Source of the DNA: a virus
IMG/VR virus record: IMGVR_UViG_3300025525_000001
Direction: 5' to 3' (one strand)
Length of the DNA: 46,349 bases
The translations under genes and the position numbers were made by a program. Every line of letters begins with the position of its first letter. The stretch's first letter is position 1. Of the stretch, positions 1 to 44,342 are shown in pieces. A model generated the notes under the pieces. It saw nothing but the letters and a program-made list of their open reading frames with translations, was not told where the DNA came from and did no database searches.

Positions 1-125
1 GCGAGAACATCGGACAGGTTGGGTGGGAGGCCACGCGCGGCGTTTACCTGACGATGGTCAACTGCCGAAACCGGAAGACGGCGGGAACGTCAGGCATTGC
101 CATTGGCTTGTCGCAGTCCGTTCAG
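1..125. repeat. Terminal direct repeat, left copy (identical to 46225..46349)
   Basis: Bases 1-125 (gcgagaacatcggacagg...tcgcagtccgttcag) recur base-for-base at 46225-46349. The unique length is therefore 46,224 bp. Confidence 0.95.
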
Positions 126-31466: not shown

Positions 31467-33556
31467 TGCCGACCCTGCGCACTTTCAACCGCTCGTTCGC
31501 CGGCGGCGAGATCACGCCCGAGATGTTCGGGCGGATCGACGACGTTCGCTACCAGACCGGGCTGGCGACCTGCCTGAACTTCATCACCCTGCCCCACGGG
31601 CCCGCGACCAACCGCCCAGGCTTCGAGTTCGTGCGCGAGGTCAAGGACAGCACCCGCGCGACCCGGCTCCTGCCGTTCACCTTCAGCTCGACCCAGACCG
31701 TGATCCTTGAGTTCGGGCACGAGTATTTCCGCTTCCACAGCGAGGGCGGCACCGTCATGGACGGCTCCGACCCCTACGAGATCGCACACCCGTTCGACGA
31801 GGCCGACCTGTTCAAGGTCAAGTTCGTGCAGTCGGCCGACGTGGTCACGCTCGTCCACCCCAGCTATCCGGTGCAGGAGCTGCGCCGCCTCGGGGCCACC
31901 AACTGGACCGTGGTGTCGCCCACCTACGGAGCGGGCGTCGCCGCCCCGGCAGGGTTGAGCGTGACGCCGACCACCGCGGGCGCGAGCTTTTTGCGGACCT
32001 ACGAATACGTCGTGACGGCTTTGAAGGACACCGCGGAAAGCGTCGCCTCGGCCCCGGCGGCGGCCACCAACAACCTGAACGCCGCCGACACATACAACGA
32101 TATATCTTGGTCCGCGGTGACCGGCGCGACAGGCTACTGCGTGTACCGGCTGGAGGGCGGCCTCTACTACCTGATTGGTATCACCACCGGCAACGGCACG
32201 GTGACCCTGCGCGACGACAACCTGCCCTACAACGGCGGCCAGACCCCGCCGCTGGTGTCGGACCCCTTCGCCGGATCGAACAACCCGGGCGCGGTGACCT
32301 ACTTCGAGCAGCGCAAGGTGTTCGGGGGCACCGACACTCTGCCGCAGAACATCTGGACGACCCGCACCGGATCGGAGGTGAACTTCAACTACTCGGTGCC
32401 GCCGCGCGATGACGATAGCATCCAGCTGGCCATCGCGGGCCGCCAGTATAACCAGATCGTCCACCTGGTGCCGCTTCAAGACCTCATCATCATGACCCAG
32501 GCCGGAGAGTGGCGGCTGTACGCGGCCGGCGGCGGGGCGCTCACGCCCGAGAGCTTTGCCCTGCGCCCGCAGTCGTTCGTCGGCGCAGGCCACGCGACGC
32601 CGATCACCACCGGATCGAACCTGGTGTTCGCCGACACCGCAGGTCACGTCCGCGAGATGGCCTTCTCCCAGGACGCGGGCGGCTACATCACCGGCGACCT
32701 GTCGCTGCGTGCGCCCCACCTGTTCGACGAGTTCGAGATCGTCGACACCGCCCAGGTCAAGGCCCCCTATCCGATCCTGTGGTTCGTCAGCACCAGCGGC
32801 AAGCTGCTCGGGATCACCTACATTCCCGAACAGCAGGTCGCGGGATGGCACCAGCACTTGACCGGCGCGACCTACGACGCCGAGACCCAGGAACTGGCGA
32901 CCCAGCACTATTTCGAGAGCATCGCATCGGTGCGCGAAGGGAGCGAGGACGCGCTGTATGCCGTCATCCGCCGCGAGATCAACGGCAACTCGGTGCGCTA
33001 CATCGAGCGGGCCCGCAAGCGCGCGTTCGCCACGGCGGCCGACGCCTTCTTCGTCGACGCCGGGGTCTACTATTCGGGCGCGCCGATCACCACCGTGACC
33101 GAGGGCCTCGACCACCTGGAAGGGGAGACAGTGTCGATCCTCGCCGACGGCGCGGTGTTGCCGCCCCAAGTCGTGGTTGGCGGCGAGGTGACCTTCGACG
33201 AGCCTGTCTCGACAGTCGTCATCGGCCTGCCCATCGTCGCCGAGATCAAGACCCTGCCGTTCGCGGCCGAGATACAGGGCGCGGGCCAGGGCCGCCCGAA
33301 GAACGTCAACGAGGTGTGGCTGCGCGTATTCCGCTCCTCGGGCATCTTCGCTGGCCCCTCGGCCGACAAGCTGACCGAATACAAGCAGCGCACCACCGAA
33401 CCCTACGGCTCGCCCCCGTCGCTGAAGACCGACGAAATCAGCATCAAGATTTCGCCTTCGTGGGCAAACGACGGGCAGGTCGTGATCCGGCAGACCGACC
33501 CGCTGCCCCTGACCGTCCTGTCGATGTCGCTGGAGACCGTCCTTGCCGGCGGTTGA
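31466..33556 (+). CDS. Tail tubular protein B / nozzle (T7 gp12-like)
   Basis: ATG at 31466 (TGATG junction). MPTLRTFNRSFAGGEITPEMFGRIDDVRYQTGLATCLNFITLPHGPATNRPGFEFV is the conserved N-terminus of nozzle proteins. The protein is 696 aa. Confidence 0.8.
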   Translation: MPTLRTFNRSFAGGEITPEMFGRIDDVRYQTGLATCLNFITLPHGPATNRPGFEFVREVKDSTRATRLLPFTFSSTQTVILEFGHEYFRFHSEGGTVMDGSDPYEIAHPFDEADLFKVKFVQSADVVTLVHPSYPVQELRRLGATNWTVVSPTYGAGVAAPAGLSVTPTTAGASFLRTYEYVVTALKDTAESVASAPAAATNNLNAADTYNDISWSAVTGATGYCVYRLEGGLYYLIGITTGNGTVTLRDDNLPYNGGQTPPLVSDPFAGSNNPGAVTYFEQRKVFGGTDTLPQNIWTTRTGSEVNFNYSVPPRDDDSIQLAIAGRQYNQIVHLVPLQDLIIMTQAGEWRLYAAGGGALTPESFALRPQSFVGAGHATPITTGSNLVFADTAGHVREMAFSQDAGGYITGDLSLRAPHLFDEFEIVDTAQVKAPYPILWFVSTSGKLLGITYIPEQQVAGWHQHLTGATYDAETQELATQHYFESIASVREGSEDALYAVIRREINGNSVRYIERARKRAFATAADAFFVDAGVYYSGAPITTVTEGLDHLEGETVSILADGAVLPPQVVVGGEVTFDEPVSTVVIGLPIVAEIKTLPFAAEIQGAGQGRPKNVNEVWLRVFRSSGIFAGPSADKLTEYKQRTTEPYGSPPSLKTDEISIKISPSWANDGQVVIRQTDPLPLTVLSMSLETVLAGG

Positions 33557-34019
33557 GATCAGGCCCGCGGTCGCGCTGGACGCGCTCGTGATCGAGCCGA
33601 GGTTGAGACCCGCTGACCGGGATGAGCTGGTAGCGGCCAGCGGCCCTGACATCAGGGCCCAACTCGTAGATGCTGTCGACCAGTCGGCAGGCAGGCTGGG
33701 CCGCATGGCCTTCGCCGCCGAGCACGAGGACACGCTGATCGCTCTGTTCGGGTTCGTGCCCAAGGGCCCGCTGTCTGACACCGCCCACCCGTGGCTGGTC
33801 GGCACGCCCGGCCTGGCTCGCGTTCCCGGTGTGCTTAACCGTCTGGCCCGCTCGTACTGTCACGCCGTGCTGGGCGAGTACCCTACGCTCGTCAACTATG
33901 TCGACGCCCGCAACAAGGCGAGCATCGTCTGGCTGACGCGCCTCGGGTTCGCGGTCCACCCTTCGGAGCCGTTCGGCGTAGCCGGCCTGCCCTTCCACCG
34001 TTTCGAGATGCGAGGCTGA
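33543..34019 (+). CDS. Internal virion protein with acetyltransferase-like fold (T7 gp13 position)
   Basis: The gene occupies the slot right after the nozzle gene. VNYVDARNKASIVWLTRLGFAV resembles the GNAT N..a..ly.klGF element. The TTG start at 33543 is uncertain. Confidence 0.5.
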   Translation: MPAVEIRPAVALDALVIEPRLRPADRDELVAASGPDIRAQLVDAVDQSAGRLGRMAFAAEHEDTLIALFGFVPKGPLSDTAHPWLVGTPGLARVPGVLNRLARSYCHAVLGEYPTLVNYVDARNKASIVWLTRLGFAVHPSEPFGVAGLPFHRFEMRG

Positions 34020-34025
34020 CCGTTC

Positions 34026-34538
34026 ATGTGCAACCCGATGGCGATCATGGGGATGCAGGGGGCGGGTGCCGCGGTGGGAGCCATCGGGGCCTACGGCGGC
34101 GCGAAGTCACAGAAAAGCGCCCTCAACTTCCAGGCCCAGATGTCGGACCTGAACGCGCAGCTGGCCGAGCGCCGCGCGCAGATTTCGCTTGAGCAGGGCG
34201 CGTACCAGGCCGCCGAGATCGAGAGGGGCGGGGCCCGGCTGAAGGGCTCTCAACGGGCGGCTCTCGGGGCGCGCGGTGTGGCGCTCGACAGCGGCACCGC
34301 CGTGGCGATCCAGGCAGGCACCGATGCGGTTACGCAAGAGGATGCCCGGCAGGCGCGGATCAACGCCGTGCGCGAAGCCTGGGGGCACCGCTATGACGCC
34401 GCCAACCAGAAGAACCAGGCCGGGGCGTCCCGGGCCAACGCCAAGGGCATCAACCCGATGGGCGCGGCGGGCACGTCGCTGCTGACCAGCGCGACCAGCA
34501 TGGCGTCCAGCTACTACGGGATGAGGAAAGCAGGCTGA
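34026..34538 (+). CDS. Internal virion protein (Gly/Ala/Gln-rich, starts MCNP)
   Basis: 170-aa ORF within the ejection-protein block with a hydrophobic Gly-rich N-terminus. Confidence 0.55.
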   Translation: MCNPMAIMGMQGAGAAVGAIGAYGGAKSQKSALNFQAQMSDLNAQLAERRAQISLEQGAYQAAEIERGGARLKGSQRAALGARGVALDSGTAVAIQAGTDAVTQEDARQARINAVREAWGHRYDAANQKNQAGASRANAKGINPMGAAGTSLLTSATSMASSYYGMRKAG

Positions 34539-36682
34539 TGGCCCGCATCGTCATCAACGACCAGCGCCGCGTCGCCCCGGGCCAGGCCCCGGGCAGCTTC
34601 GCCGCGCCTGACGCCAGCCAGGGCGCGGACTTCGCCTCGCGCCAACTGCAGCAGGTCGGACAGGGCATCCAGCAGGCTGGCCAGCTGGCCGGTCAGATTT
34701 ACGCGGCCGAGCGCGAGAAGATCAACGAGACCCGGGTCAACGACGCCATCAACCGCGCGCAGCGCGAGGCGCTGGACCTGCGCAGCGAGTACACGCCGTT
34801 GCAGGGCGAGGCTGCGCTGCGGGTCGGCGAGACCGAGGAGAGCGTCGACCAGGTCTACGCGCCCCGTTTCGAGCGCCGCCTCGGCGAGATCGCCGACGAG
34901 CTGGGGCTCACCGCAGTCCAGCGTGCGCGCTATCAGGAGCGCGCCCAGCCGCTGGCCCTGAACTTCCGCGCGGGCGTGACCAACCATTTCCTGGCCCAGA
35001 ACGAGAGTTACCAGGCCGAGGTCGCCGCGTCCGGCATAGCGGTCGAGCAGCAGACCATTCTCGGCGATCCGCTCAACGCGGAGGTCACCGGCGCTTCCAT
35101 CGCCCGCATCGAGGAGCTGGTCGCCGCCGACGCCGCCCGCCGGGGGTTGAGCGCCGAGGGCACCGCGCTCGCCAAACAGGAGTTCGTCGGCAAGGCCTTC
35201 CTCGAAGCGATCATCGCCACCGAGGACGAAGACCTGCAGGGCGCGCAGGACATCTACGACACCCACCGCGACCGGATGACGGCGACGCAGCAGAACGCCG
35301 CGCGCAACGCGCTGGGCGCGGGCGTCGCCACGCAGAACGCCACCTCGTGGGTTGCCGCCCGGTTCGCGGGCACGCCCGCCCCGCCCCCGGGAGCGCCCGG
35401 CGGCACCTATCAACATCCGGTTCCCGGGGCTCGCCGTTCGTCGCCCCACGGAAACCGCGTCCACCCGATCAGCGGCGGCGTCAAGATGCACGACGGTGTC
35501 GACTACGCCGCGCCGGCCGGATCGCCTGTCCGCGCCATCGCCGCGGGCCGCGTGGTGCGCGTCGGGCCCAACGGCGGCTACGGCAACTTCGTCGAGATCG
35601 ACCACGGTAACGGTGTCGTCACCGGCTACGCGCACCTGCAGGACTTCGATGTCGCGGTCGGCGATGAACTGGCCGCCGGGCAGAACCTGGGCCGCGTGGG
35701 CTCGACTGGCGACAGCACAGGCCCGCATTTGCACCTCCGTGCCCGTCGGGACGGACGAAGCATCGATCCCGAGACCCTGATCGGCCAGAACGCAGAAGCC
35801 GCCGCGGCGCAGGCTGGTGCGGGCCGCCCGACCCGCGCCCAGCTGGAGCGCGAGGCCGCCGCCGAGTTCGGCAACAACCGGATCGCGCTGGCCGCGGCCC
35901 GGGCCGAGATCGCCCGCGCCTACGGCCTGGAGGAAGCCGAGAAGCGTGAGCGCGAGGAGGCCGCCCGCGACACGGTTTTCCGGCACATGGAACAGACCCG
36001 CACCGCGCCGACGGCGGCGATGATGGCCGCCCTGCCGCCGGGCATGGTCAACACGGTGAACAACTACCTGGAGGCCCTGATCGCGCCGCCGACCGTGCGC
36101 AGCGACCCGAACCTGCTGCTGGCCCTGGCTGCGAACCCGGAAGCCGTCAAGGAGATGCTGCCCGAAGAGATCGTCGCCAACTACGGCCAGCGGCTCACGT
36201 CCAGCGATCTCATCAGTTTGGTGGGCACCTCGGCCCGGGCCGGCGTCGCCGCGCAACAGGAGGCGGCCACCGCCGCCCACGTCCCGCAACAGGCCTTCTC
36301 CTCGGCCTGGACCCTCGCGCTGGACGTAGCGGGTATCGACCGCACGCCGTCGGGCCGACGCGCCGACAGCGACCGACAGGCGCTGGCCCAACTGAACGTG
36401 GCCGTGCGCGAGGCGATCATCGAGCGCCAGCGCGGGCTCGGCCGCCAGCTGACCCGCGAGGAGATCAGCGAGGAAATCCAGACGCGACTTGGCCGCTTGG
36501 TTTGGGAGCGTCCGCAGGGTATCTTCACGCCCTTCGCTGCGGGCTACCAGACGTCGTACGAGACCATGACGCCGCGGAACCAGGTTGATTTCCGCACCCG
36601 GGCGCGCGAGCGGTTGGGCCGTAACCCGACCAACGACGAAATATACGCCGAGTACATCCGCGACCGCATCAGGGGACGTTAA
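34538..36682 (+). CDS. Internal virion protein with M23 (LytM-type) peptidoglycan endopeptidase domain
   Basis: HPISGGVKMHDGVDYAAPAGSPVRAIAAGRVV...GYGNFVEIDHGNGVVTGYAHL...GSTGDSTGPHLHL carries the HxxxD and HxH zinc motifs of M23 peptidases (about nt 35400-35780). Confidence 0.85.
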   Translation: MARIVINDQRRVAPGQAPGSFAAPDASQGADFASRQLQQVGQGIQQAGQLAGQIYAAEREKINETRVNDAINRAQREALDLRSEYTPLQGEAALRVGETEESVDQVYAPRFERRLGEIADELGLTAVQRARYQERAQPLALNFRAGVTNHFLAQNESYQAEVAASGIAVEQQTILGDPLNAEVTGASIARIEELVAADAARRGLSAEGTALAKQEFVGKAFLEAIIATEDEDLQGAQDIYDTHRDRMTATQQNAARNALGAGVATQNATSWVAARFAGTPAPPPGAPGGTYQHPVPGARRSSPHGNRVHPISGGVKMHDGVDYAAPAGSPVRAIAAGRVVRVGPNGGYGNFVEIDHGNGVVTGYAHLQDFDVAVGDELAAGQNLGRVGSTGDSTGPHLHLRARRDGRSIDPETLIGQNAEAAAAQAGAGRPTRAQLEREAAAEFGNNRIALAAARAEIARAYGLEEAEKREREEAARDTVFRHMEQTRTAPTAAMMAALPPGMVNTVNNYLEALIAPPTVRSDPNLLLALAANPEAVKEMLPEEIVANYGQRLTSSDLISLVGTSARAGVAAQQEAATAAHVPQQAFSSAWTLALDVAGIDRTPSGRRADSDRQALAQLNVAVREAIIERQRGLGRQLTREEISEEIQTRLGRLVWERPQGIFTPFAAGYQTSYETMTPRNQVDFRTRARERLGRNPTNDEIYAEYIRDRIRGR

Positions 36683-36688
36683 AGCCAC

Positions 36689-39600
36689 ATGGCTGTTGAG
36701 CTGCAGGACGACCCCGCTTCCCAGATCGAAGAGCAACGCCGCAGGCTGTCGAACGCGCTGCGCACCGGGGCTGTGGAGAACCCCGACGCCCTGGCCGCTG
36801 ACCGCGCCGAGGCGGCCCGCAGGGGTATGCCGGTCACCGCGCTGCGCGCCGTTCGCCAGCAGAATGTGGTCTTGCCCCCGGTCGCGTTGACGCCGGACCT
36901 GCCGGAAACCTCGCCGCGCACCTCGAACTTCCTGTCCAACCCGGCCAACGCCGCGGTCGCCCACGACGACATCGAGAATATGTCGGCGGTCGAGCGCATC
37001 GTCGCCCGCATCGGAGAGCGCACCGTCCGTTTGGCCCAGGGCGCGGGCCGTGCTTCGTACACGGCCTTGGCTGGGCCAGCCACGTGGCTGGAAGAGAACC
37101 TGCCTCGACAGGTTCTATCCTTCGAGAATGGGCGCATCGTGCGCCGTGCTATCTCGGCCGAGGAGCGCAGGGCCACCGGTTTCAACGCGCAGGCGCAGCG
37201 CCTGCTCGACCCGAACAGACTGCACACCATCGAGCAGGGCGTCACCTGGGAAGAGTTCAAGGAGCGCCCCCTCGAACGCCTGATCCCGTTCGCGCTCGAA
37301 GAAGGCGTCGTGTCGGTGCCGGACATGGCCGCGGTCATGTTGAACCTGCCCGCCTACGTGACGGCGCGTACGGGCGAGATAGGCCAGGAGCGGTCGGAGA
37401 ACGACGGGCGCGAAAACGCCACGGTAATGGACCTTGTCGCCGCCCTTCCCGCGGCGGCAGCTTCGGCGCTTCTGGACCGGCTCGGTGCGCGGGGTATCCT
37501 CGGCATCGACGACGCGGTGCGCGGCGGTTTGCGTGGCGTGCCCGGGGCTGTCGGCCGAGCCGCTGGCAAGGAGGCCGTCACCGAGGGCCTGCAGGAGGGG
37601 ATCGAATATCTGGGCTCGAACCTCGGCACCGAGGCGGGCTTTAACCCTGCCGACGCGCTGGAGCGTATGGCCCAGGGGGTGATCATCGGCGGCCCGTTCG
37701 GCGGCACCGTCCGCACTGTGACGGCCACGGCCGAAGTTGCGGCCCAGCGGTTCGGCGCGCAGGAGACCCAGGCCCAGGCGGGCGAACAGGCGGCCGAAAC
37801 GCTGCAGGAACTGGCGGCCCTGGCCGAGGCCTCGAAGCTGCGCGAGCGCGACCCGCAGACCTTCCAGCAGTTCATCGAAGAGGCGTCGGAGGGGACGCCG
37901 GCCGAGAACATCTACGTTGACGCCGAGACCTTCGCCCAGAGCCTGAACGAGGCGGGCGTGCCGCTCGATGCCGTGCTCGAAGCGATCCCCGGATTGTCGG
38001 ACCAGCTCGCCACGGCGGCCGAGACCGGCGGCGACCTGCGCATCAGCGCGGGTGAGTTCGCCACCCACATTGCGGGCACCGACGCCGTCGGCCCGCTGCT
38101 CCCGCACCTGCGCACCGACCCGTTCGCGATGAGCCAGGCGCAGGCCAAGGAGTTCATGGCCAACCGCGGCGACGCGCTGCAGGCCGAGGTCGAGGCGGCG
38201 GTCACCGCGGCTACGGCCACCGAGGACGCGCGGGCGGGCCGGGAGCGGGTGCAGGCCAAGATCGCCGCCGAGCTGGACACCACCGGCCGCTTCACCTCGG
38301 ACGTCAACCGCGCCTACGCTTCGTTGCCGTCGGCCTTCTACGACGTCATGGGCGCGCGGCTGGGCATCACCGCCGAGCAGGCGGCCGAACGTTACCCGCT
38401 GAAGTTCGCCGCCGAACTGCCGTCGAGCGCCCGCGCGAACACGCTGGAGCAGATCGAAACTGTCGAACAGATCGCAAGGGACGCGGAGAGCCAAGGCGTT
38501 CGGATCGACACCACCGAAGGCGACAACGAGATCGCGCTCAACCTGATCGACACCACCGCAGCAGGCCGGAAGCAGGGGCTGGGCACGGCTTTCATGGAAC
38601 GGCTGGTCGCCAACGCTGACGCCACCGGGCGACGTGTCGTGCTGACGCCCGACGCTTCGATGGGCGCGACGTCGGCGGGCCGACTGGTCAAGTTCTACAA
38701 GCGGTTCGGCTTCAAGGAGAGCAAAGGCCGCGGGCGCGACTTCAGCACGCAAGCGGGGATGATCCGCGAGCCCGTGGCCGGGGCTGAAGCCACTTTCAAC
38801 CAAGCCGAAGACGTAGCCCCACACTTCTACTCGGCCCTCGAACGCGCCGTGGCGAACAGCCCGACCACCAAGGCCCCGGCCGCACAGTGGAAGGCGACGC
38901 TTGCCAAGACGCCGGGCGTGAAGAAGGAAGAGCTGGAGTGGTCGGGCCTGAACGAGTGGCTGGACGCCGCTGGCGGTGAGGGCGCGCTGGCAGGGTACAC
39001 CCGTTCGTCGCTGTTGGATCGGGATGAGATCGACGCCAAGGGCAACATAGCGAAGTCGGCGGTTCTGCGTTTCGTTAAGCAGGGCGGTGTCCAGGTCGAG
39101 GAAACGGTGCTGGGCGAAAACGCTGGCACACCCGAACCCTTCGCGGAGCCTGACGACGACTGGTTAGAGACTACCGCCGCGCGTCTTCGGGTAGAAGACC
39201 CCGAGTTGACCGAACAGGAGGCTCTGAGCGCCGCTAAAGACGAGTGGTATGAAGACGCCACTTACGAGGATTTGAACCCACAGTTCGAGACGGACGCGCA
39301 GTTCTCCAGCTACAAGCTCCCCGGCGCGGACGATACCTACCGCGAAATCCTGCTGACCCTGCCCCAGATCGAGGGCCCGTCGACCCATTGGGACACCGAG
39401 AACGTCGTCGCCCACGCGCGGGTCACGATGCGCGAGGACGCCTCGGGCGCTCGCGTGCTGTTCCTCGAAGAGCTGCAGAGCGACTGGCATCAGCAGGGAC
39501 GGGATGAGGGGTACAAGACCGACGCCTCTCCCGAGAAGATCGAAGAGGCCAAGTTCAACGCCCTTGAGGCGCGTCGGAAGCTGGACAGCATCGCGTACGA

Positions 39601-42600
39601 CATGGCCCGCATCGCCGAGCGCACGGGCGAGGCCAAGCGCGAGTGGTTCGGTCGGCCGATCAATGACCTCGGCCCCTATGACAAGCGCCGCGCTTACGAG
39701 GGCATGGTCGAAGAAGGCACTGCGACCCCGGAGCTGACCGAGATCGTCATGGCACGGGCGCAGGCCGCACTTGTGGCCCGCGAGACCTCCATCGCCTACG
39801 AGGCGCTGGAGCGTGGCATCCCCGACGCCCCCTTCCGCAATAGCTGGTCCGCTCTCATCATGAAGCGGATGATCCGCTACGCCGTCGACAACGGCGCGGA
39901 GAAAATCGCGTGGATCAACGGCAACCAGCAGAACGGCGGCCAGACCGGCGGCGACGGCTCCTTCTTCTACGAGCGCAACCTGGTCAACGTCGCCAACGAC
40001 CTGGTGAAAAAATACGGGACGCGGGTCGGGCCGGTGGATATGCTGGAAACCACCTTCGGCCGCCAGCAATACGCCCTCAAACAAGAGCTGGGCGAGGACA
40101 CCCCCGAGCGCCAAGCAGAAGACCAACAGGTAATCGTCGCCTCGCAAGAGGAGGTTCAAGACCTCTATCGGGAAGCGATCAACCTACCGATGGCAACCCC
40201 CGAAAGGGTCGCCGCCGAGAACGCGCTGATGCGTGCCCGCATGGCGCAGCGTGAGAATAACCCGGAGCTGGTCGCGGCCGAGCGCCGCAGCGAAATCCGC
40301 AGGCATCTTTACGGCAGAGCGGACCCTACCCGACCCGCTACCTCTCTCGGCATCCAAAACGGCTTCGAGATCACGCCCGCCCTGCGCGAGGCGGCCCAGC
40401 AGGGCTTCGCCCTGTTCCAGAAGAACCGAGGCCAGATCGCTTTCGGCGCTGACGTCAGCCAGACCCCGTCGGTCATCAGCGTCCTGCGCGCCGCCGATCT
40501 CTCGACCTTCGTCCACGAGACCGGCCACTTCTTCCTCGAAGCGACGGCGCACATGGCCAACCAGGTTGACGCGCCGGCCGACATCGTCGCCGACATGGCG
40601 ACCACCCTCAACTGGTTCCAAGAGGGTATGACGCTCGCCGACTGGAACGGCATGAGCCTCGAAGAGCGCCGCCCCTTCCACGAGAAGTGGGCCCGCGGGT
40701 TCGAGGCCTACCACTTCGAGGGCAAGTCCCCCAGCCTCGCCCTGCGCGACGTGTTCCGCCGCTTCTCGGCGTGGCTGAAGAACGTCTACAAGTCCCTGAC
40801 CGCTCTCGACGTCGAGCTGACCGAAGACGTGCGCGCGGTCATGGACCGGATGTTGGCCTCGGAAGCCGAGATCGCCGAGATGGAACAGGTCCGCGGCTTC
40901 GCCCCGGCCTTCGCCAGCAAGCCCGAATACGCCACCGAGGACCAGTGGTCCGAGTATCAGCGACTGGCTGGCGACGCCACGGCCGAAGCCATCGAGCAGC
41001 TGGAACAGCGCAGCGCGCGGGATATGCGCTGGGCGTCCGGTGCCAAGGATCGCTACGTCAAGGCGATGCAGCGCGAGGCCGACGAACAGCGCAAGGCGAT
41101 CCGCGCCGAGGTGACCGCCGAAGTGATGGCCGAGCCGGTCAACCGGGCCCGCAACTTCCTGCGCCGCGGCCTGGGCGAGAACGGCGAACCCGTCGAGGGT
41201 GCCGTCAAACTGGACCTGGCCACGCTCAAGGAGCTGTACGGGGACGAGGGCGCGTGGACCGCTCTTCGCCGCGGAGGCAAATACGGCGAGGTCTCCACCG
41301 ACGGCGCGCACCCCGACATCGTCGCCGGTATGTTCGGCTATTCGTCCGGCGAGGCGATGATCGCCGACCTGGTCAACGGCGAGAACGCAGCCGACAAGAT
41401 CAAGGGCCTGACCGACCAGCGGATGCTGGAGCGGTACGGCGACCTGACCGATCCGCAGGCCATCGAGCGCGCCGCCAACGAAGCGGTCGCCAACGACGCC
41501 CGGGCCAAGTTCGTGGCCGCCGAGATGGCGATGGCCGACAAGGCTGTCGGCAAGAAGTCGATCCTGAACGAGGCCGCCCGCGACTTCGCCGCCGGTGTCG
41601 TCAACCGCCTGGAGCTGAAGCGCTTGCGCCCCGCGCAGTACCTGGCCGCTCAAGGCCGTGCGGCCAAGGCCGCCGAGAAGGCGCTGAAGAAGGACGATCT
41701 GCCTGCCTTCGCCGCGGCCAAGCGCAACCAGCTCATCAACCTGCACACCGGCCGCGCCGTGATGAAGGCCCAGGCCGACGTCGAGAAGAACACTCGCCTG
41801 TTCACGCGCATCGTCAGCGCCAAGGACGACGCGATATCTCGCACCCGCAACATGGACCTGGTCAACGGGGCCCGGGCCATCCTGTCGCTCTACGGTTTCG
41901 GCCGGGTCAAGAACGACCCCATCGGCTACATGGACGCGCTGAAGCGGTACGACCCGGTCCTCTACACGGACCTGGAGCCGTTCATCACGGCGGCCCGAGC
42001 CTCGGCCAAGCCGATCCCCGACCTGACCTACGAGGAGTTCCAGGGACTGCGCGACGTCGTCGGGCAGCTCTGGGCGCTGTCGCGCCGCGTGAACCAGGTC
42101 GAGCGAGACGGCAAGCTGGTCGACCTGAAGACCGTCACCGCCGCCATGGAAACGCGGCTGGAAGAGATCGGCATCCCCGAGAATCGCCCCGGCACGCGCC
42201 GCGCCATCACCGACAGCGAGAAGCGCGACTTCGATCTATTGAGCGTCCGCGCCGCCCTGCGTCGCGTGGAGAGCTGGGCGCGTGGGATCGACGGAGCGAA
42301 CAGCGGCCCGTTCCGCGCCAACATCTGGAACCCAGTGTCGGAAGGCGCGGACAACTACCGCGCCGAGAGCGGCGTCTACATCAAGCGTTTCCGCGCTCTG
42401 CTCGACACCGTCCGCGACGAGTTGAAGCCGCGCGACATCGCCGCGCCCGAACTGGGCTACACCTTCGGCGGCAAGTCGGAGCTGTACCACGCGCTGCTCC
42501 ACACCGGCAACGGCTCGAACAAGTCCAAGCTGCTGCTGGGCCGCAACTGGGGCAAGCGCGATCCTGACGGGATGCTCGACGACAGCCGCTGGCAGACCTT

Positions 42601-44284
42601 CCTAGACCGTTTGCACGCTGACGGCACGCTGACGGCCAAGGACTGGAACTTCGTCCAGGCGGTCTGGGATATGCTCGAGGACACCAAGGCGGGCGCGCAG
42701 AAGGCCCACCGCACGGTCTACGGCCGGTACTTCGACGAGGTCGCCGCCGACCCTGTCGACACGCCCTTCGGCCAGTACCGCGGCGGCTATGTGCCCGCGC
42801 TGACCGACCAGAACCTGGTGCAGGACGCCGCGCTGCGGGCCGAGCAGGAGGCCATCGAAGGTGGGGACAGCGCCATGTTCCCGGCGGCCAGCAACGGCTT
42901 CACCAAGTCGCGCGTCGAGGACTACACCCGCGAGCTGGCGCTGGACCTGCGGCTGATCCCGTCGCACGTCGACAAGGTGCTGAAGTTCACCCACCTTGGC
43001 CCGCCGGTGCGCGACGTCATGCGCATCCTGAAGAACCGCGACTTCTCGGCCAAGCTGCAGGCCTTCGACCCGACGGCCCAGACCGACCTGCTGTTGCCGT
43101 GGTTGAACCGCGCCGCCAAGCAGATTGTCGAGACCCCGTCCAAGGGCCGCGCCGGCAAGTGGGCCGACCGAGCGTTCAGCTACATCCGCTCGAATGTCGG
43201 GATGCAGCTGATGTTCGCCAACGCCGTGAACACCCTGCAGCAGCTGACCGGCTTCTCGGGCGTGATGCTCCGCGTCAAGGCCTCGCACGTCAACGGCGCG
43301 CTGTGGCGCTACACCCGCGACCCTGCGGGCGTCACCGAGACCGCGACCAAGAAGTCTGTGTTCCTGCGCAACCGCTCGGACACCAACCTGTTCGAGGCCC
43401 GCCAAGCGATCACCCAGCTGGTGAAGCTGAACCCGAACGGCCTGGACAAGGTCCGCGACTTCTCCTCGCGCCACGCCTACTTCGCGCAGTCGGCCCTGCA
43501 GAACGTCATGGACGTGGTCGCCTGGTCGGCCTCCTACGACCAGGCCGTGACCGGCGGCGAGACCGATCTCGAAGCGATCCGGTTCGCTGACAGCGTGATC
43601 CGCGAAACGCAGGGGTCGATGGCTCCCGAGGACATCTCGCGGCTCGAAACCGGCACGCCGTTCGTGCGGGTGTTCACGCAGTTCTACGGCTATTTCAACA
43701 TGATGGCCAACCTGGCGGGCACCGAGGTCCAGCAGGTCGCCCGAGGCGTGGGCCTGCGCAAAGGTGCCGGCCGCCTGTTCTACGTCTACGTCATGACGCT
43801 GCTGATCCCGGCCGTGATCGGCGACGCCATCGCCCAAGGCTTGCGCGGCGGCTGGGAAGACGAAGAGGACGACGGCATCCTGAACGACCTGATCCCGTGG
43901 TTCTTCGGGAGCCAGGCCAAGTTCGCTCTGGCCACAGTCCCGGGTGTCGGGCAGCTCGCCAACGCGACCATGGGCGCGTTCACCAAACAGCCCTACGATG
44001 ACCGGGTTTCGATGTCCGCTTCGGTGTCCGTCGTCGAGGGCACGCTGGGCGTGCCGGCCGCGATCTACGAGACGGTCGTCGAAGGCGAGACATTCAACCG
44101 CAACGACGTCCGCGACGTGTTCAACCTGCTCGGCATCATCAGCGGCACCCCCGCCAACGTGCTCGGCAAGCCGGTCGGCTACGGCGTCGGCGTGGCGCAG
44201 GGAGACATCGAGCCGACCGGCCCTCTGGACGCGGCGCGCGGCTTCTTCACCGGCACGCCGAGCCCTGAAAGCAAGACCAACTAG
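36689..44284 (+). CDS. Giant (2,531-aa) internal virion/ejection polyvalent protein with GNAT-like and HExxH modules
   Basis: Single uninterrupted ORF. GNAT motif A RKQGLGTAF plus LVKFYKRFGF lie at aa ~590-678 (nt 38456-38722). HETGH lies at aa 1276-1280 (nt 40514-40528). The C-terminal region has hydrophobic helices (LFYVYVMTLLIPAVIGDAIA). Confidence 0.8.
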   Translation: MAVELQDDPASQIEEQRRRLSNALRTGAVENPDALAADRAEAARRGMPVTALRAVRQQNVVLPPVALTPDLPETSPRTSNFLSNPANAAVAHDDIENMSAVERIVARIGERTVRLAQGAGRASYTALAGPATWLEENLPRQVLSFENGRIVRRAISAEERRATGFNAQAQRLLDPNRLHTIEQGVTWEEFKERPLERLIPFALEEGVVSVPDMAAVMLNLPAYVTARTGEIGQERSENDGRENATVMDLVAALPAAAASALLDRLGARGILGIDDAVRGGLRGVPGAVGRAAGKEAVTEGLQEGIEYLGSNLGTEAGFNPADALERMAQGVIIGGPFGGTVRTVTATAEVAAQRFGAQETQAQAGEQAAETLQELAALAEASKLRERDPQTFQQFIEEASEGTPAENIYVDAETFAQSLNEAGVPLDAVLEAIPGLSDQLATAAETGGDLRISAGEFATHIAGTDAVGPLLPHLRTDPFAMSQAQAKEFMANRGDALQAEVEAAVTAATATEDARAGRERVQAKIAAELDTTGRFTSDVNRAYASLPSAFYDVMGARLGITAEQAAERYPLKFAAELPSSARANTLEQIETVEQIARDAESQGVRIDTTEGDNEIALNLIDTTAAGRKQGLGTAFMERLVANADATGRRVVLTPDASMGATSAGRLVKFYKRFGFKESKGRGRDFSTQAGMIREPVAGAEATFNQAEDVAPHFYSALERAVANSPTTKAPAAQWKATLAKTPGVKKEELEWSGLNEWLDAAGGEGALAGYTRSSLLDRDEIDAKGNIAKSAVLRFVKQGGVQVEETVLGENAGTPEPFAEPDDDWLETTAARLRVEDPELTEQEALSAAKDEWYEDATYEDLNPQFETDAQFSSYKLPGADDTYREILLTLPQIEGPSTHWDTENVVAHARVTMREDASGARVLFLEELQSDWHQQGRDEGYKTDASPEKIEEAKFNALEARRKLDSIAYDMARIAERTGEAKREWFGRPINDLGPYDKRRAYEGMVEEGTATPELTEIVMARAQAALVARETSIAYEALERGIPDAPFRNSWSALIMKRMIRYAVDNGAEKIAWINGNQQNGGQTGGDGSFFYERNLVNVANDLVKKYGTRVGPVDMLETTFGRQQYALKQELGEDTPERQAEDQQVIVASQEEVQDLYREAINLPMATPERVAAENALMRARMAQRENNPELVAAERRSEIRRHLYGRADPTRPATSLGIQNGFEITPALREAAQQGFALFQKNRGQIAFGADVSQTPSVISVLRAADLSTFVHETGHFFLEATAHMANQVDAPADIVADMATTLNWFQEGMTLADWNGMSLEERRPFHEKWARGFEAYHFEGKSPSLALRDVFRRFSAWLKNVYKSLTALDVELTEDVRAVMDRMLASEAEIAEMEQVRGFAPAFASKPEYATEDQWSEYQRLAGDATAEAIEQLEQRSARDMRWASGAKDRYVKAMQREADEQRKAIRAEVTAEVMAEPVNRARNFLRRGLGENGEPVEGAVKLDLATLKELYGDEGAWTALRRGGKYGEVSTDGAHPDIVAGMFGYSSGEAMIADLVNGENAADKIKGLTDQRMLERYGDLTDPQAIERAANEAVANDARAKFVAAEMAMADKAVGKKSILNEAARDFAAGVVNRLELKRLRPAQYLAAQGRAAKAAEKALKKDDLPAFAAAKRNQLINLHTGRAVMKAQADVEKNTRLFTRIVSAKDDAISRTRNMDLVNGARAILSLYGFGRVKNDPIGYMDALKRYDPVLYTDLEPFITAARASAKPIPDLTYEEFQGLRDVVGQLWALSRRVNQVERDGKLVDLKTVTAAMETRLEEIGIPENRPGTRRAITDSEKRDFDLLSVRAALRRVESWARGIDGANSGPFRANIWNPVSEGADNYRAESGVYIKRFRALLDTVRDELKPRDIAAPELGYTFGGKSELYHALLHTGNGSNKSKLLLGRNWGKRDPDGMLDDSRWQTFLDRLHADGTLTAKDWNFVQAVWDMLEDTKAGAQKAHRTVYGRYFDEVAADPVDTPFGQYRGGYVPALTDQNLVQDAALRAEQEAIEGGDSAMFPAASNGFTKSRVEDYTRELALDLRLIPSHVDKVLKFTHLGPPVRDVMRILKNRDFSAKLQAFDPTAQTDLLLPWLNRAAKQIVETPSKGRAGKWADRAFSYIRSNVGMQLMFANAVNTLQQLTGFSGVMLRVKASHVNGALWRYTRDPAGVTETATKKSVFLRNRSDTNLFEARQAITQLVKLNPNGLDKVRDFSSRHAYFAQSALQNVMDVVAWSASYDQAVTGGETDLEAIRFADSVIRETQGSMAPEDISRLETGTPFVRVFTQFYGYFNMMANLAGTEVQQVARGVGLRKGAGRLFYVYVMTLLIPAVIGDAIAQGLRGGWEDEEDDGILNDLIPWFFGSQAKFALATVPGVGQLANATMGAFTKQPYDDRVSMSASVSVVEGTLGVPAAIYETVVEGETFNRNDVRDVFNLLGIISGTPANVLGKPVGYGVGVAQGDIEPTGPLDAARGFFTGTPSPESKTN

Positions 44285-44294: not shown

Positions 44295-44342
44295 GCGGGG
44301 GCCCCCCGCCTAGGATCGCCGCGACCTTCGGAGCAATATCTC

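What the first reader, a model, noticed from the sequence alone, without database searches (positions are those of the whole stretch)
36689..44284. 2,531-aa polyvalent ejection protein combining GNAT acetyltransferase, HExxH zincin-like and membrane-insertion modules
Seen: a single 7.6-kb ORF makes up one sixth of the genome. It closes the internal-virion gene block, in the slot used by T7 gp15/gp16. At least three separable modules are visible. (a) At aa ~590-678 (nt 38456-38722), IALNLIDTTAAGRKQGLGTAFMERLV...GRLVKFYKRFGFKE carries GNAT motif A (R/Q-x-x-G-x-G/A) and the terminal ..Y.k.GF element. (b) At aa 1276-1280, HETGH sits within LSTFVHETGHFFLEATAHMAN, a zincin-type HExxH in a helix-like context. 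(c) The C-terminal ~350 aa contain several TM-length hydrophobic helices (LFYVYVMTLLIPAVIGDAIA, AKFALATVPGVGQLA), as expected for a channel-forming ejectosome part. Long stretches between them (for example the LFLEELQSDWHQQGRDEGY region) are unassigned. Established knowledge: giant polyvalent virion proteins of phages and conjugative elements string together enzymatic effector domains that are injected with the DNA to counter host defences. Inference: this protein likely delivers an acetyltransferase and a metallopeptidase-like activity into the cell at the first moment of infection. Their targets are unknown. This is the best candidate here for an undescribed effector system.
Basis: partly seen in the sequence, partly recalled or inferred. 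Interest (0 to 1): 0.8.

Follow-up and report, generated by a model that had tools for sequence, protein, structure and literature searches.

The report
Giant phage ejection protein carrying enzyme cargo
This 2,531-residue gene is the large DNA-ejection protein of a BPP-1/epsilon15-like short-tailed phage. Its middle carries a small acetyltransferase and a second, widespread but completely uncharacterised enzyme-like module, and both are probably injected into the host together with the DNA.

Summary
The ORF (36689-44284, +, 2,531 aa) is real. It makes up 16.4% of a 46,224-bp circular podovirus genome and sits in the T7 gp16 slot, after tail-tube, gp13-like, gp14-like and M23-peptidase genes and before the tail fibre. 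It is a homologue of Bordetella phage BPP-1 Bbp10, which is listed in the literature as a T7 gp16 (IVP-D) relative. Conserved scaffold: N-terminal LPD22, aa ~200-575 and aa ~1244-2531. The stretch between them (aa 576-1250) varies among relatives.

GNAT claim: supported. Solo homologues carry Pfam GNAT, every PDB profile hit is a GNAT, and the AlphaFold model matches Naa50 and AcrVA5.

HExxH claim: the motif is invariant, with two invariant downstream Glu, but it belongs to the conserved scaffold. My structure and profile searches did not recover a zincin fold. A zincin assignment for Bbp10 and the HExxH of N4 gp50 are already published.

Transmembrane claim: only one strongly hydrophobic C-terminal helix. 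Another hydrophobic stretch lies at aa 198-267.

The protein and its relatives almost completely lack cysteine.

Verdict: a new member of the known polyvalent ejection-protein class, carrying one uncharacterised module.

The parts
36689..44284 (+). Giant ORF of 2,531 aa: the IVP-D (T7 gp16-slot) ejection protein with inserted cargo. It contains no cysteine.
36749..37015 (+). LPD22 domain (aa 21-109), conserved at the N-terminus of all phage homologues.
   Evidence: Pfam PF18834, E=7e-13, 49 bits against a cutoff of 28.6. Aligned in BPP-1, JessA, DC33, AF, CP2 and Vibrio 1.185.O.
37280..38413 (+). Conserved N-terminal scaffold region (aa ~198-575). It includes hydrophobic, Gly/Ala-rich segments at aa 198-267, which are a candidate membrane-associating part.
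   Evidence: Conserved in eight phage homologues of this protein, domain E-values 1e-54 to 1e-105 and 1.9e-240 for the full-length Vibrio 1.185.O match. Hydropathy peak 1.75 at aa 244-262. Position parallels the membrane-spanning helices of the N4 gp50 N-terminal domain, residues 224-278 (PMC13434306). No Pfam match.
38453..38770 (+). Minimal GNAT acetyltransferase module (aa ~589-694). Motif A is RKQGLG at aa 627-632, and the alpha4 element is RLVKFYKRFGF.
   Evidence: Pfam GNAT families, E 6e-4 to 5e-3, below the cutoff. (solo ~125-aa homologues, 43-58% identical, carrying Pfam GNAT). (all 30 PDB profile hits are GNATs). (AlphaFold pLDDT 83-90; Foldseek hits Naa50, AcrVA5, Ard1 and RimI).
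38825..40429 (+). Uncharacterised, strongly conserved enzyme-like module (aa 713-1247). It has a small helical N-subdomain, then a beta-sheet core. Residues R911, E928, Q930, G941, P1048, W1053 and A1065 are invariant. E886, H900, S931 and D932 are nearly invariant. It ends in the motifs GGxGxxxFY..L and ITPxxRE..G..LF.
   Evidence: conservation. (15,308 representative clusters at E<=1e-3). (no Pfam, NCBIfam or PDB match). (no PHROG). (confident AlphaFold core; BFVD matches only to uncharacterised giant viral proteins). (a solo homologue sits in the internal-virion gene block of a T7-like contig).
40418..40948 (+). HExxH module (aa ~1244-1420) that opens the conserved C-terminal block. HETGH is at nt 40514-40528. 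Invariant residues are S1272, T1273, H1276, E1277, H1280, E1332, E1339 and Y1341.
   Evidence: invariance. (HExxH lies in a helix, pLDDT 83-88). (no fold or profile confirmation). PMC3650047, PMC5512222 and PMC13434306.
40949..44281 (+). Conserved, mostly alpha-helical C-terminal region (aa 1421-2531; phrog_9880). It contains the RGGYVP motif at aa ~2030.
   Evidence: phrog_9880, E=0, aa 1236-2526. (25-40% identity over ~1,200 aa to BPP-1, AF, CP2 and others). (helical up to aa 1700). (the best local match to both T7 gp16 and the N4 gp50 C-terminal domain is at the same GxY[VI]P motif, but is not significant).
43775..43834 (+). The single strongly hydrophobic, TM-length helix (aa 2363-2382, LFYVYVMTLLIPAVIGDAIA).
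   Evidence: hydropathy 1.95. Most of the homologues scanned (seven of nine, at a hydropathy threshold of 1.5) have an equivalent segment ~130-170 aa before the C-terminus; none was listed there for Ab9 or the Nostoc fragment.
34538..36682 (+). Neighbouring 714-aa internal-virion protein in the gp15 slot. It carries an M23 peptidoglycan peptidase at aa 316-411.
   Evidence: (PF01551, E=1e-33).
33543..34538 (+). An IVP-A-like gene (33543-34019) and a T7 gp14-family gene (34026-34538), which begin the internal-virion block.
   Evidence: phrog_308; PF24072; clear similarity to epsilon15 gp13.

Best explanation
The ORF encodes the largest internal-virion (ejection) protein of an epsilon15/BPP-1-like podovirus. 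It is the counterpart of T7 gp16 (IVP-D), and it is built on the same plan as coliphage N4 gp50.

Plan of the protein:
- A conserved N-terminal part: LPD22 plus aa ~200-575, which contains a hydrophobic stretch.
- A conserved C-terminal part: an HExxH module followed by about 1,100 mostly helical residues and one hydrophobic helix.
- Between them, a lineage-variable cargo. N4 carries an RNA polymerase at this position. This phage carries a minimal GNAT acetyltransferase (aa ~589-694) and a ~535-aa enzyme-like module of unknown chemistry (aa 713-1247).

Inferred mechanism: a few copies are packed in the capsid core above the portal. At infection they are expelled, unfolded, through the tail together with the gp14-like and M23-peptidase proteins. 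The scaffold helps to build or anchor the trans-envelope conduit. The cargo refolds on the cytoplasmic side, where the GNAT acetylates a host protein (most plausibly a defence or other early-acting factor) and the second module carries out an unknown reaction.

Shown here: the ORF, the synteny, the homology to Bbp10 and its relatives, the scaffold-versus-cargo layout, the GNAT fold, the invariance of the HExxH motif, and the near absence of cysteine.

Inferred, not shown: presence in virions, ejection into the cell, membrane insertion, enzymatic activity and targets.
For: - Synteny with the T7, epsilon15 and BPP-1 internal-virion blocks.
- Similarity of 25-40% identity over ~1,200 aa to the giant proteins at the same position in BPP-1 (Bbp10), JessA, AF, CP2, Ab9, DC33 and ctQRb9.
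- Bbp10 is listed as a T7 IVP-D homologue, and the C-terminal domain of N4 gp50 belongs to the same extended family (PMC4819975).
- Conserved regions are aa 10-110, ~200-575 and 1244-2531. The region aa 576-1250 differs among relatives.
- N4 gp50 has an N-terminal domain with membrane-spanning helices, an RNA polymerase cargo, and a C-terminal domain made of C1 (HExxH) plus C2 (~110 kDa, helical) (PMC13434306).
- GNAT evidence.
- Solo relatives of both cargo modules are encoded inside virion gene blocks: P0012 lies between the gp15-like and gp16-like genes of a T7-like contig, and P0062 lies in a P22-like virion module.
- Cysteine avoidance: the giant ORF has 0 Cys in 2,531 aa. Relatives, T7 gp15 and gp16, and N4 gp50 have 0-1. 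Solo mid-module proteins have 4 Cys in 70,009 residues. The cytoplasmic enzymes of the same phage have 4-11 Cys each.
- The protein class is described in PMC5512222.
Against: - There are no proteomic or structural data for this phage, so virion location is inferred from synteny and homology only.
- Direct sequence similarity to T7 gp16 and N4 gp50 is not significant with the tools I had. It is confined to one short GxY[VI]P motif, with E 0.003 in a 5-sequence database and hhalign E 0.1-0.26. The link to T7 and N4 therefore rests on the published analysis of Bbp10.
- The GNAT scores below Pfam's gathering cutoffs: 17.6-20.6 bits against 27.
- No target is known.
- In T7 and epsilon15, a GNAT-like protein (IVP-A) in the same gene block is an assembly factor, not an effector (PMC4819975).
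- The second cargo module has no detectable relative of known function, so calling it an 'enzyme' rests only on its invariant polar residues.
Confidence: 0.65

Rival explanations
1. Processing-protease model. The HExxH module is an active zincin-like metallopeptidase. After ejection, or during maturation, it cuts the polyprotein at inter-domain linkers and releases the GNAT and the unknown module as free effectors. This is the model proposed for polyvalent proteins in general.
For: - HExxH and two downstream Glu (E1332, E1339) are invariant across 20 divergent homologues, and the motif lies in a confidently predicted helix.
- A conserved RGxhxh...hxLh pattern precedes the motif and could form the strands of a zincin sheet.
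- Bbp10 residues 700-1000 were linked to CLCA-type zincins by FFAS and HHalign (PMC3650047).
- Processing by a zincin-like peptidase is the published theme for polyvalent proteins (PMC5512222).
- The unknown-module family ends in a conserved ITPxxRE..G..LF motif, exactly where the HExxH module begins, which makes this a candidate cleavage junction.
Against: - Foldseek against the PDB gave no hit with E<1.
- The region that should form the beta-sheet has pLDDT below 50.
- Profile searches against PDB and Pfam gave only short motif-level hits below threshold: ACE E 0.3-1, Spartan E 2.2, and single-member Reprolysin, M78 and SprT hits. Pfam MPTase-PolyVal was not hit.
- N4 gp50 has a comparable HExxH subdomain but is described as a single 383-kDa chain (PMC13434306).
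- HExxH also occurs in non-protease enzymes (same paper).
Confidence: 0.3
2. Purely structural or assembly model. The GNAT-fold and unknown modules are not catalytic effectors. They serve as spacers, chaperone-like parts or DNA- or membrane-binding parts of the core and ejectosome, as the GNAT-like IVP-A (T7 gp13, epsilon15 gp13) serves in assembly.
For: - T7 IVP-A and epsilon15 gp13 are GNAT-like but act in morphogenesis (PMC4819975; annotation).
- This phage has such a gene at 33543-34019.
- No substrate is known.
- In this phage's copy of the unknown module, the family's conserved R and Y in the QxxRY motif are replaced by G and Q (aa 1084-1085).
Against: - The cargo GNAT keeps the acetyl-CoA-binding motif A (RKQGLG) and the alpha4 Tyr. 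It is 43-58% identical to solo GNATs and shows no specific similarity to IVP-A proteins.
- The cargo region is absent from, or replaced in, close relatives such as Bbp10, which still form virions.
- The unknown module has invariant R, E and Q and near-invariant E, H, S and D across very divergent members, as expected of an active site.
- It co-occurs with ART-PolyVal, RadC, ParB, LPD1 and LPD23 domains in other giant proteins.
Confidence: 0.15
3. Pre-packaged anti-CRISPR or anti-defence acetyltransferase. The GNAT works like AcrVA5, acetylating and disabling a host nuclease, but it is delivered ready-made with the DNA instead of being expressed early.
For: - AcrVA5 (PDB 6IUF; identity confirmed in PMC11021501) is the second-best profile hit (E=0.0035).
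- It is also the best size-normalised structural match: TM-score 0.72-0.73, rmsd 2.8-3.2 Å over 91-93 columns.
- Both are minimal GNATs of ~95-125 aa encoded by mobile elements.
- Delivery in the virion would solve the timing problem that anti-defence proteins face.
Against: - Sequence identity is only ~18%.
- The Foldseek E-values for AcrVA5 (4e-3) are about the same as for the N-terminal acetyltransferases Naa50 and Ard1 (2e-3 to 4e-3), so the match mainly reflects shared small size.
- The host is unknown, and nothing indicates a Cas12a system.
Confidence: 0.1
4. Legacy database annotation: a 'lysin', 'lysis protein' or 'crystallin beta/gamma motif-containing protein'.
For: Homologues carry these names in GenBank records.
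Against: No lysozyme, peptidase or crystallin family matches any part of the protein in Pfam, PHROGs or NCBIfam. The muralytic domain (M23) is in the preceding gene, and an endolysin is encoded elsewhere, at 1289-1999.
Confidence: 0.03

Closest known systems
Bordetella phage BPP-1 Bbp10 and the equivalent giant proteins of Caulobacter JessA, Pseudomonas AF gp16, Xanthomonas CP2 ORF24, Acinetobacter Ab9, Limnohabitans DC33 and uncultured ctQRb9
   Same: Same genomic slot, after the muralytic internal-virion protein and before the tail fibre. All share the N-terminal LPD22, the aa ~200-575 region and the ~1,290-aa C-terminal block with invariant HExxH, at 25-40% identity. All have almost no cysteine.
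   Different: The middle differs. Bbp10 has only ~185 aa between the conserved parts, whereas this protein has ~685 aa holding a GNAT and the unknown module. Among the isolated phages examined, the GNAT recurs in Vibrio phage proteins (the alignment to Vibrio 1.185.O runs through aa 695; BFVD entries 34-37% identical). The unknown module recurs in Nostoc phage JY18 and, in part, in Dolichospermum phage JY45.
Coliphage N4 gp50 (virion RNA polymerase)
   Same: Same overall plan: an N-terminal domain with membrane-spanning helices near residues 224-278, a central enzymatic cargo, and a C-terminal domain made of a ~250-aa HExxH subdomain plus a ~110-kDa helical subdomain with no structural relatives. 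It is ejected into the cell, is cysteine-free, and occupies the gp16-analogous position (PMC13434306; PMC4819975).
   Different: The cargo is an RNA polymerase, not a GNAT plus the unknown module. Direct sequence similarity to the protein studied here is not significant.
T7 gp16 (internal virion protein D)
   Same: Last and largest gene of the internal-virion block. Helical, cysteine-free, ejected, and forms the inner-membrane end of the ejectosome. The best local alignment is at the shared GxYVP..YD motif.
   Different: T7 gp16 is 1,318 aa and has an N-terminal lytic transglycosylase, which this protein lacks. Here the muralytic activity (M23) is in the preceding gene. T7 gp16 has no GNAT or unknown module, and its single HE..H string (aa 559) was not aligned with this one.
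Polyvalent proteins of phages and conjugative elements (Iyer et al. 2017, PMC5512222)
   Same: Several unrelated domains in one virion-delivered polypeptide. LPD22, GNAT and an HExxH (zincin-like) module are all named components of the class.
   Different: The two polyvalent GNAT families described there are found in gammaproteobacterial (pro)phages next to an ART domain, and in T4SS conjugative elements of several phyla. I did not test whether this GNAT belongs to either. The aa 713-1250 module matches none of the LPD families held in Pfam.
AcrVA5 (PDB 6IUF), a 92-aa anti-CRISPR acetyltransferase
   Same: A minimal GNAT fold of similar size encoded by a mobile element, and the best size-normalised structural match.
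   Different: About 18% identity. AcrVA5 is a free, early-expressed protein rather than a module of a virion protein, and the target of the GNAT studied here is unknown.

Membership tests
Polyvalent proteins (Iyer et al. 2017) | Two or more domains of disparate biochemical type in one polypeptide | tested here: met
   LPD22, GNAT, the unknown conserved module and the HExxH module are present.
Polyvalent proteins (Iyer et al. 2017) | Encoded among virion (or conjugation) genes, implying delivery with the DNA | tested here: met
   The gene lies between the internal-virion genes and the tail fibre.
Polyvalent proteins (Iyer et al. 2017) | Actual packaging in the virion and injection into the host | not testable with these tools
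   Needs virion proteomics and infection assays. The only indirect support is cysteine avoidance.
GNAT acetyltransferase superfamily | Acetyl-CoA-binding motif A (Q/R-x-x-G-x-G/A) after strand beta4 | tested here: met
   RKQGLG at aa 627-632. The two Gly are invariant in 19 family members.
GNAT acetyltransferase superfamily | GNAT fold | tested here: met
   AlphaFold pLDDT is 83-90 for this part. Nearly all of the top 50 Foldseek PDB hits are GNATs (Naa50 E=2e-3; AcrVA5 TM-score 0.72-0.73).
GNAT acetyltransferase superfamily | Score above the curated Pfam gathering cutoff | tested here: not met
   Acetyltransf_7 scores 17.6-20.6 bits against a cutoff of 27, and Acetyltransf_10 scores 15-18.2 against 23.6. 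However, 15 of the 18 homologues found (43-58% identical; 16 of them solo proteins of ~120-200 aa) have GNAT families on record, and all 30 PDB profile hits are GNATs (best E=0.0026).
GNAT acetyltransferase superfamily | Acetyl-transfer activity | not testable with these tools
   Needs biochemistry.
Zincin-like metallopeptidases | HExxH in an alpha-helix | tested here: met
   HETGH at aa 1276-1280, inside a helix (model residues 47-66, pLDDT 83-88). Invariant in 20 homologues.
Zincin-like metallopeptidases | Third metal ligand (Glu, Asp or His) in a downstream helix | tested here: inconclusive
   E1332 and E1339 are invariant and lie in a predicted helix. I could not read the model's coordinates, so their geometry relative to the two His is unknown.
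Zincin-like metallopeptidases | Zincin fold (beta-sheet plus active-site helix), recognisable by structure or profile comparison | tested here: not met
   Foldseek against the PDB gave no hit with E<1, and the residues before the helix have pLDDT below 50. Profile searches against the PDB gave only 15-residue ACE matches (E 0.3-1) and Spartan (E 2.2). Pfam gave single-member sub-threshold hits only, and no MPTase-PolyVal hit. Published FFAS/HHalign evidence exists for Bbp10 (PMC3650047), but I could not reproduce it.
T7 gp16 / IVP-D family | Last, largest gene of the internal-virion block downstream of tail-tube B | tested here: met
T7 gp16 / IVP-D family | Sequence homology to an accepted family member | tested here: met
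   32% identity over aa 1262-2466 to Bbp10 (E=1.6e-138). Bbp10 is listed as an IVP-D homologue in PMC4819975, Table 2.
T7 gp16 / IVP-D family | Direct, significant similarity to T7 gp16 itself | tested here: inconclusive
   Only the GxYVP motif region aligns: 3.5 bits, E=0.003 in a 5-sequence database, and hhalign E=0.1.
T7 gp16 / IVP-D family | N-terminal lytic transglycosylase domain (a feature of T7 gp16, not of every family member) | tested here: not met
   No muralytic family matches the ORF. An M23 peptidase is in the preceding gene.
N4 gp50-type ejected enzyme | N-terminal membrane-spanning helices, central enzyme cargo, and an HExxH subdomain followed by a large helical C-terminal domain | tested here: inconclusive
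   The layout matches (PMC13434306), but sequence similarity is not significant.

The most novel reading that the evidence does not exclude
The aa 713-1250 module is the founding example, in an assignable genomic context, of a very large and entirely uncharacterised family of virion-delivered enzymes. The family has more than 15,000 clusters at 50% identity, with invariant R, E and Q and near-invariant E, H, S and D, and it almost completely lacks cysteine. It occurs as solo ~700-aa internal-virion proteins and inside polyvalent proteins of up to ~7,500 aa in phages and megaplasmids. It would carry out a new kind of early-infection chemistry on a host target, working alongside a pre-packaged AcrVA5-like acetyltransferase.
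Probability: 0.4. Interest if true: 0.75.

Novelty: new member of a known kind. Interest (0 to 1): 0.45.

Why it matters
Proteins injected with phage DNA act before any phage gene is expressed. That makes them the earliest possible counter-defence and take-over tools. This locus gives a clean example of the 'scaffold plus exchangeable cargo' design of podovirus gp16-type proteins. It places a minimal GNAT in that cargo position.

It also gives a defined genomic setting to a very abundant protein module (more than 15,000 clusters) that has no annotation in Pfam, NCBIfam, PHROGs or the PDB. Working out what that module does would annotate thousands of giant 'hypothetical' proteins in phages and plasmids.

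If the near-total absence of cysteine holds up, it could serve as a simple sequence marker for ejected proteins.

Tried and rejected
HExxH module
1. Tried to confirm a zincin fold with AlphaFold of aa 1225-1700 plus Foldseek against the PDB. I also ran a trimmed 20-sequence profile against PDB sequences and scanned its 20 member sequences individually against Pfam. There was no support beyond the motif itself.
2. Tried to link the C-terminal block directly to T7 gp16, epsilon15 gp15-17 and N4 gp50 with family HMMs and hhalign. Only a short shared GxY[VI]P motif emerged, and it was not significant. A weak hit of the N-terminal family HMM to epsilon15 gp16 (10.7 bits) remains a lead only.

Unknown module (aa 713-1250)
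3. Pfam on segments, on 48 members and on 16 trimmed cores at E<=10.
4. NCBIfam and PHROGs.
5. PDB sequence profiles.
6. Foldseek against the PDB. The 50 rows shown (E up to 0.036) were almost all GNAT matches, so weaker matches to the module could not be seen.
7. Foldseek against BFVD, which returned only uncharacterised viral giants.
8. A full-text search for the QSDWHQ motif, which found nothing relevant.

Known folds considered for the unknown module and rejected
9. Iyer's InPase domain: it has an OB fold and four acidic residues, which does not fit.
10. The truncated polyvalent-protein kinase: some descriptive features resemble it, but there is no Pfam signal.
11. An ART domain or a RecB-type PD-(D/E)xK nuclease: the E..ExQ..QxxxY pattern is suggestive, but the canonical Asp and Lys are missing, and this phage's copy lacks the R and Y. 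These are untested leads, not findings.

Other
12. Tested whether the cargo GNAT derives from the IVP-A GNAT-like gene of the same block. There is no similarity.
13. megablast of the ORF against isolated phages found nothing.

Full report
**1. The observation**

The window begins and ends with the same 125 bp, so it is a circular assembly of 46,224 bp. It has about 66% G+C. It encodes a podovirus with T7-like gene order:
- On the minus strand: replication genes, including DNA polymerase, helicase, exonuclease and an SSB-like protein.
- On the plus strand: primase-helicase, large terminase, portal (PF12236), protease, epsilon15-type capsid protein (PF20911), tail-tube A and B, an internal-virion protein (33543-34019, phrog_308), a T7_gp14-family protein (34026-34538) and a 714-aa protein with an M23 peptidase domain (34538-36682).

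The ORF 36689-44284 follows directly. It starts with ATG, encodes 2,531 aa and takes up 16.4% of the genome. After it comes an ORF that runs across the window end. Its N-terminus matches the tail-fibre proteins of BPP-1-like and Caulobacter phages.

So the ORF, its size and its place in the gp15/gp16 slot are confirmed.

**2. Relatives and overall layout**

No isolated phage is close at the DNA level. At the protein level, 78 phage records match. The best are an uncultured podovirus (ctQRb9), Limnohabitans phage DC33, Bordetella phage BPP-1 (Bbp10), Acinetobacter Ab9, Caulobacter JessA, Pseudomonas AF (gp16), Xanthomonas CP2 (ORF24) and a Nostoc phage.

In each of these genomes the homologue is a protein of about 2,000-4,000 aa at the same position, after a muralytic internal-virion protein and before the tail fibre. 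Pairwise and HMM comparisons show three conserved blocks:
- aa ~10-110, which Pfam recognises as LPD22 (E=7e-13, above the cutoff);
- aa ~200-575;
- aa ~1244-2531, which matches phrog_9880 of unknown function (E=0).

The region between the second and third blocks (aa 576-1250) is not shared with most relatives. Bbp10 has only about 185 aa there. The protein is therefore a conserved scaffold with an exchangeable middle.

**3. What the literature says about the scaffold**

- Hardies et al. (PMC4819975) list Bbp10 as the BPP-1 homologue of T7 internal virion protein D (gp16). They place the C-terminal domain of N4 gp50 in the same extended family, and note that such proteins can carry domains that 'must certainly function intracellularly'.
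- The 2026 structural study of N4 gp50 (PMC13434306) describes three parts: an N-terminal domain with membrane-spanning helices at residues 224-278, validated in nanodiscs; the RNA polymerase cargo; and a C-terminal domain. The C-terminal domain is made of C1 (about 250 aa, conserved HExxH) and C2 (about 110 kDa, helical, with no structural relatives).

The protein studied here has the same order: a hydrophobic stretch at aa 198-267, then cargo, then an HExxH module, then about 1,100 helical residues.

My own attempts to link the C-terminal block directly to T7 gp16 or N4 gp50 found only one short shared motif: RGGYVP in this protein, KGTYVP in T7 and GYIP in N4. All three best alignments fall at that same point, but none is significant on its own. 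Membership in the IVP-D family therefore rests on strong homology to Bbp10 plus the published analysis.

**4. The GNAT claim (supported)**

- Pfam GNAT families hit aa 613-679, but below their cutoffs (E 6e-4 to 5e-3).
- A database search with aa 530-720 found 18 homologues, 43-58% identical. Most are solo proteins of about 125 aa, and 15 of the 18 carry precomputed Pfam GNAT domains.
- In the alignment, the acetyl-CoA-binding motif (RKQGLG in this protein) and the RLVKFYKRFGF element are invariant or nearly so.
- A profile of this family matched 30 PDB sequences at E<=1, and all 30 are GNAT acetyltransferases. The best were the 102-aa GNAT 1R57 (E=0.0026) and 6IUF (E=0.0035). 6IUF is the anti-CRISPR acetyltransferase AcrVA5 (PMC11021501).
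- The AlphaFold model of aa 580-1260 is confident for this part (pLDDT 83-90). Its top Foldseek PDB hits are Naa50, AcrVA5 (TM-score 0.72-0.73 normalised to AcrVA5, rmsd about 3 Å), Ard1 and RimI.
- Relatives of this GNAT occur inside giant proteins of uncultured viruses and of phages whose names the tables did not give, inside a 362-aa protein of Agrobacterium phage Atu_ph07, and as a solo gene inside a P22-like virion module.
- It is unrelated to the GNAT-like IVP-A gene of the same block.

**5. The HExxH claim (motif real, fold unconfirmed, not cargo)**

- HETGH (aa 1276-1280) is the only HExxH in the protein. Composition predicts 0.019 occurrences.
- In 20 divergent homologues, S1272, T1273, H1276, E1277, H1280, E1332, E1339 and Y1341 are invariant. 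This pattern is compatible with a Glu-zincin.
- However, the AlphaFold model of aa 1225-1700 (mean pLDDT 71) is entirely helical. The 30 residues before the HExxH helix are disordered, and Foldseek against the PDB found nothing with E<1.
- A trimmed profile hit only 15-residue stretches of angiotensin-converting enzyme (E 0.3-1) and Spartan (E 2.2). Pfam gave isolated sub-threshold hits (Reprolysin, M78, SprT) in single members.
- The assignment is not new. Lenart et al. (PMC3650047) used Bbp10 residues 700-1000 as a seed of their zincin-like 'CLCA_X' family, on FFAS and HHalign evidence. Iyer et al. (PMC5512222) describe zincin-like peptidases as the hub domain of polyvalent proteins and propose that they process the polyprotein.
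- N4 gp50 carries a comparable subdomain yet is described as a single 383-kDa chain.

I therefore treat 'active processing protease' as a rival with about 0.3 probability, not as an established fact.

**6. The membrane claim (partly supported)**

A hydropathy scan finds one convincing TM-length segment near the C-terminus, aa 2363-2381. Most of the homologues scanned (seven of nine) have an equivalent segment at the same relative position. There is one weak segment at 2446-2464. The N-terminal hydrophobic stretch (aa 198-267) is at least as good a candidate for membrane association, by analogy with N4.

**7.

This is the most conserved part of the cargo.
- A database search found 50 homologues, mostly solo proteins of 650-800 aa without any Pfam domain. 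A few are fused to ParB, GNAT or LPD1.
- An exhaustive profile search found 15,308 representative clusters at E<=1e-3 and 10,286 at E<=1e-30. They range from solo ~700-aa proteins to giants of 7,483 aa.
- Across about 265 divergent members, S715, E748, E886, H900, R911, E928, Q930, S931, D932, P1048, W1053, A1065 and G1078 are at least 95% conserved. R911, E928, Q930, G941, P1048, W1053 and A1065 are strictly invariant in 16 very divergent cores.
- AlphaFold predicts a small helical subdomain, then a beta-sheet core. The conserved residues sit on three adjacent antiparallel strands and the following helix. Two variable helical insertions interrupt the core.
- Nothing in Pfam, NCBIfam, PHROGs or PDB sequences matches it.
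- BFVD structure matches are all to uncharacterised giant viral proteins.
- One solo member (P0012) lies between the gp15-like and gp16-like genes of a T7-like contig. Another lies next to portal-region genes.
- Other members sit in polyvalent proteins together with ART-PolyVal and RadC domains. One sits in a ~5,000-aa LPD23 protein on Pseudomonas aeruginosa megaplasmids.
- The module is almost absent from isolated phage genomes by tblastn.
- I could not assign its chemistry. Resemblances to a RecB-type nuclease motif pattern or to the truncated polyvalent-protein kinase are untested leads only.

**8. A supporting signature: cysteine avoidance**

- The giant protein has no cysteine in 2,531 residues.
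- Its phage homologues, T7 gp15 and gp16, and N4 gp50 have 0-1 each.
- Solo unknown-module proteins have 4 Cys in 70,009 residues.
- 17 of the 18 GNAT homologues found (mostly solo proteins) have none.
- By contrast, the replication and packaging enzymes of the same phage have 4-11 Cys each.

This fits proteins that must travel unfolded through the tail and across the oxidising periplasm. It also suggests that the solo relatives of both cargo modules are ejected too. A review of ejection proteins does not mention cysteine.

**9. Verdict**

It is, however, a new member of a described class:
- The HExxH module is part of the conserved scaffold and already appears in the literature.
- The zincin fold and the channel-forming role remain unproven.
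- The GNAT is well supported.

Noticed in passing
window 38825-40429 (aa 713-1247 of the giant ORF): Strongly conserved enzyme-like module with invariant R911, E928 and Q930 and near-invariant E886, H900, S931 and D932. It belongs to a family of more than 15,000 clusters at 50% identity, with no Pfam, NCBIfam, PHROG or PDB match. Members are solo ~700-aa internal-virion proteins or parts of polyvalent proteins of up to 7,483 aa. The family is nearly absent from isolated phage genomes.
   Followed up: partly
window 36689-44284, and homologues in L001-L009, L012 and L014: The giant ORF has zero cysteines in 2,531 aa. Its relatives, T7 gp15 and gp16, and N4 gp50 have 0-1 Cys each. Solo relatives of both cargo modules are also almost cysteine-free (4 Cys in 70,009 residues). 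The same phage's cytoplasmic enzymes have 4-11 Cys each. This may be a sequence marker for ejected proteins.
   Followed up: partly
window 1-125 and 46225-46349: The first and last 125 bases are identical. This is an assembly overlap, so the contig is a complete circular or circularly permuted genome of 46,224 bp.
   Followed up: yes
window ~44295-46349, continuing at position 1: A ~700-aa + strand ORF starts right after the giant ORF and runs over the window end, so the ORF list missed it. Its N-terminal ~170 aa match the tail-fibre or tail proteins of BPP-1-like, Caulobacter and Ralstonia podoviruses.
   Followed up: yes
window 34538-36682: The gp15-slot internal-virion protein carries an M23 peptidoglycan endopeptidase (aa 316-411). 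T7 gp16, BPP-1 Bbp11 and epsilon15 gp15 carry a lytic transglycosylase instead.
   Followed up: partly
window 33543-34019: This 158-aa ORF is clearly related to epsilon15 gp13, the GNAT-like IVP-A assembly protein. The phage therefore has two GNAT-fold elements in its internal-virion block, and they show no specific similarity to each other.
   Followed up: yes
window ~40361-40440 (aa 1225-1250), and the C-termini of solo homologues P0001-P0050: A conserved motif, (I/F)xITPxxRE....G..LF(Q), ends the unknown-module family exactly where the HExxH module (RGxhxh...) begins. It could be a domain junction or a processing site.
   Followed up: no
window 37280-38413 (aa 198-575), compared with L013 (epsilon15 gp16): An HMM of the conserved N-terminal region weakly matches epsilon15 gp16 residues 136-203 (10.7 bits). 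This hints that the BPP-1-type giant protein may be a fusion of epsilon15 gp16-like and gp17-like parts.
   Followed up: no
L002 (GenBank PQ492659, Limnohabitans phage DC33): The record's taxonomy line places this 39-kb phage in Inoviridae. Yet it encodes a 3,125-aa homologue of the giant protein, followed by a 2.5-kb ORF and an L-alanyl-D-glutamate peptidase gene, so it is a tailed podovirus-like phage. This looks like an annotation error in the public record.
   Followed up: no
L018 (P. aeruginosa plasmid p382, NZ_CP115292, record 67300-82302): A ~5,000-aa 'LPD23 domain-containing protein' on 220-280-kb Pseudomonas aeruginosa plasmids contains the same unknown module (30% identity over 87% of the query). 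The module is therefore shared between phage and plasmid polyvalent proteins.
   Followed up: partly
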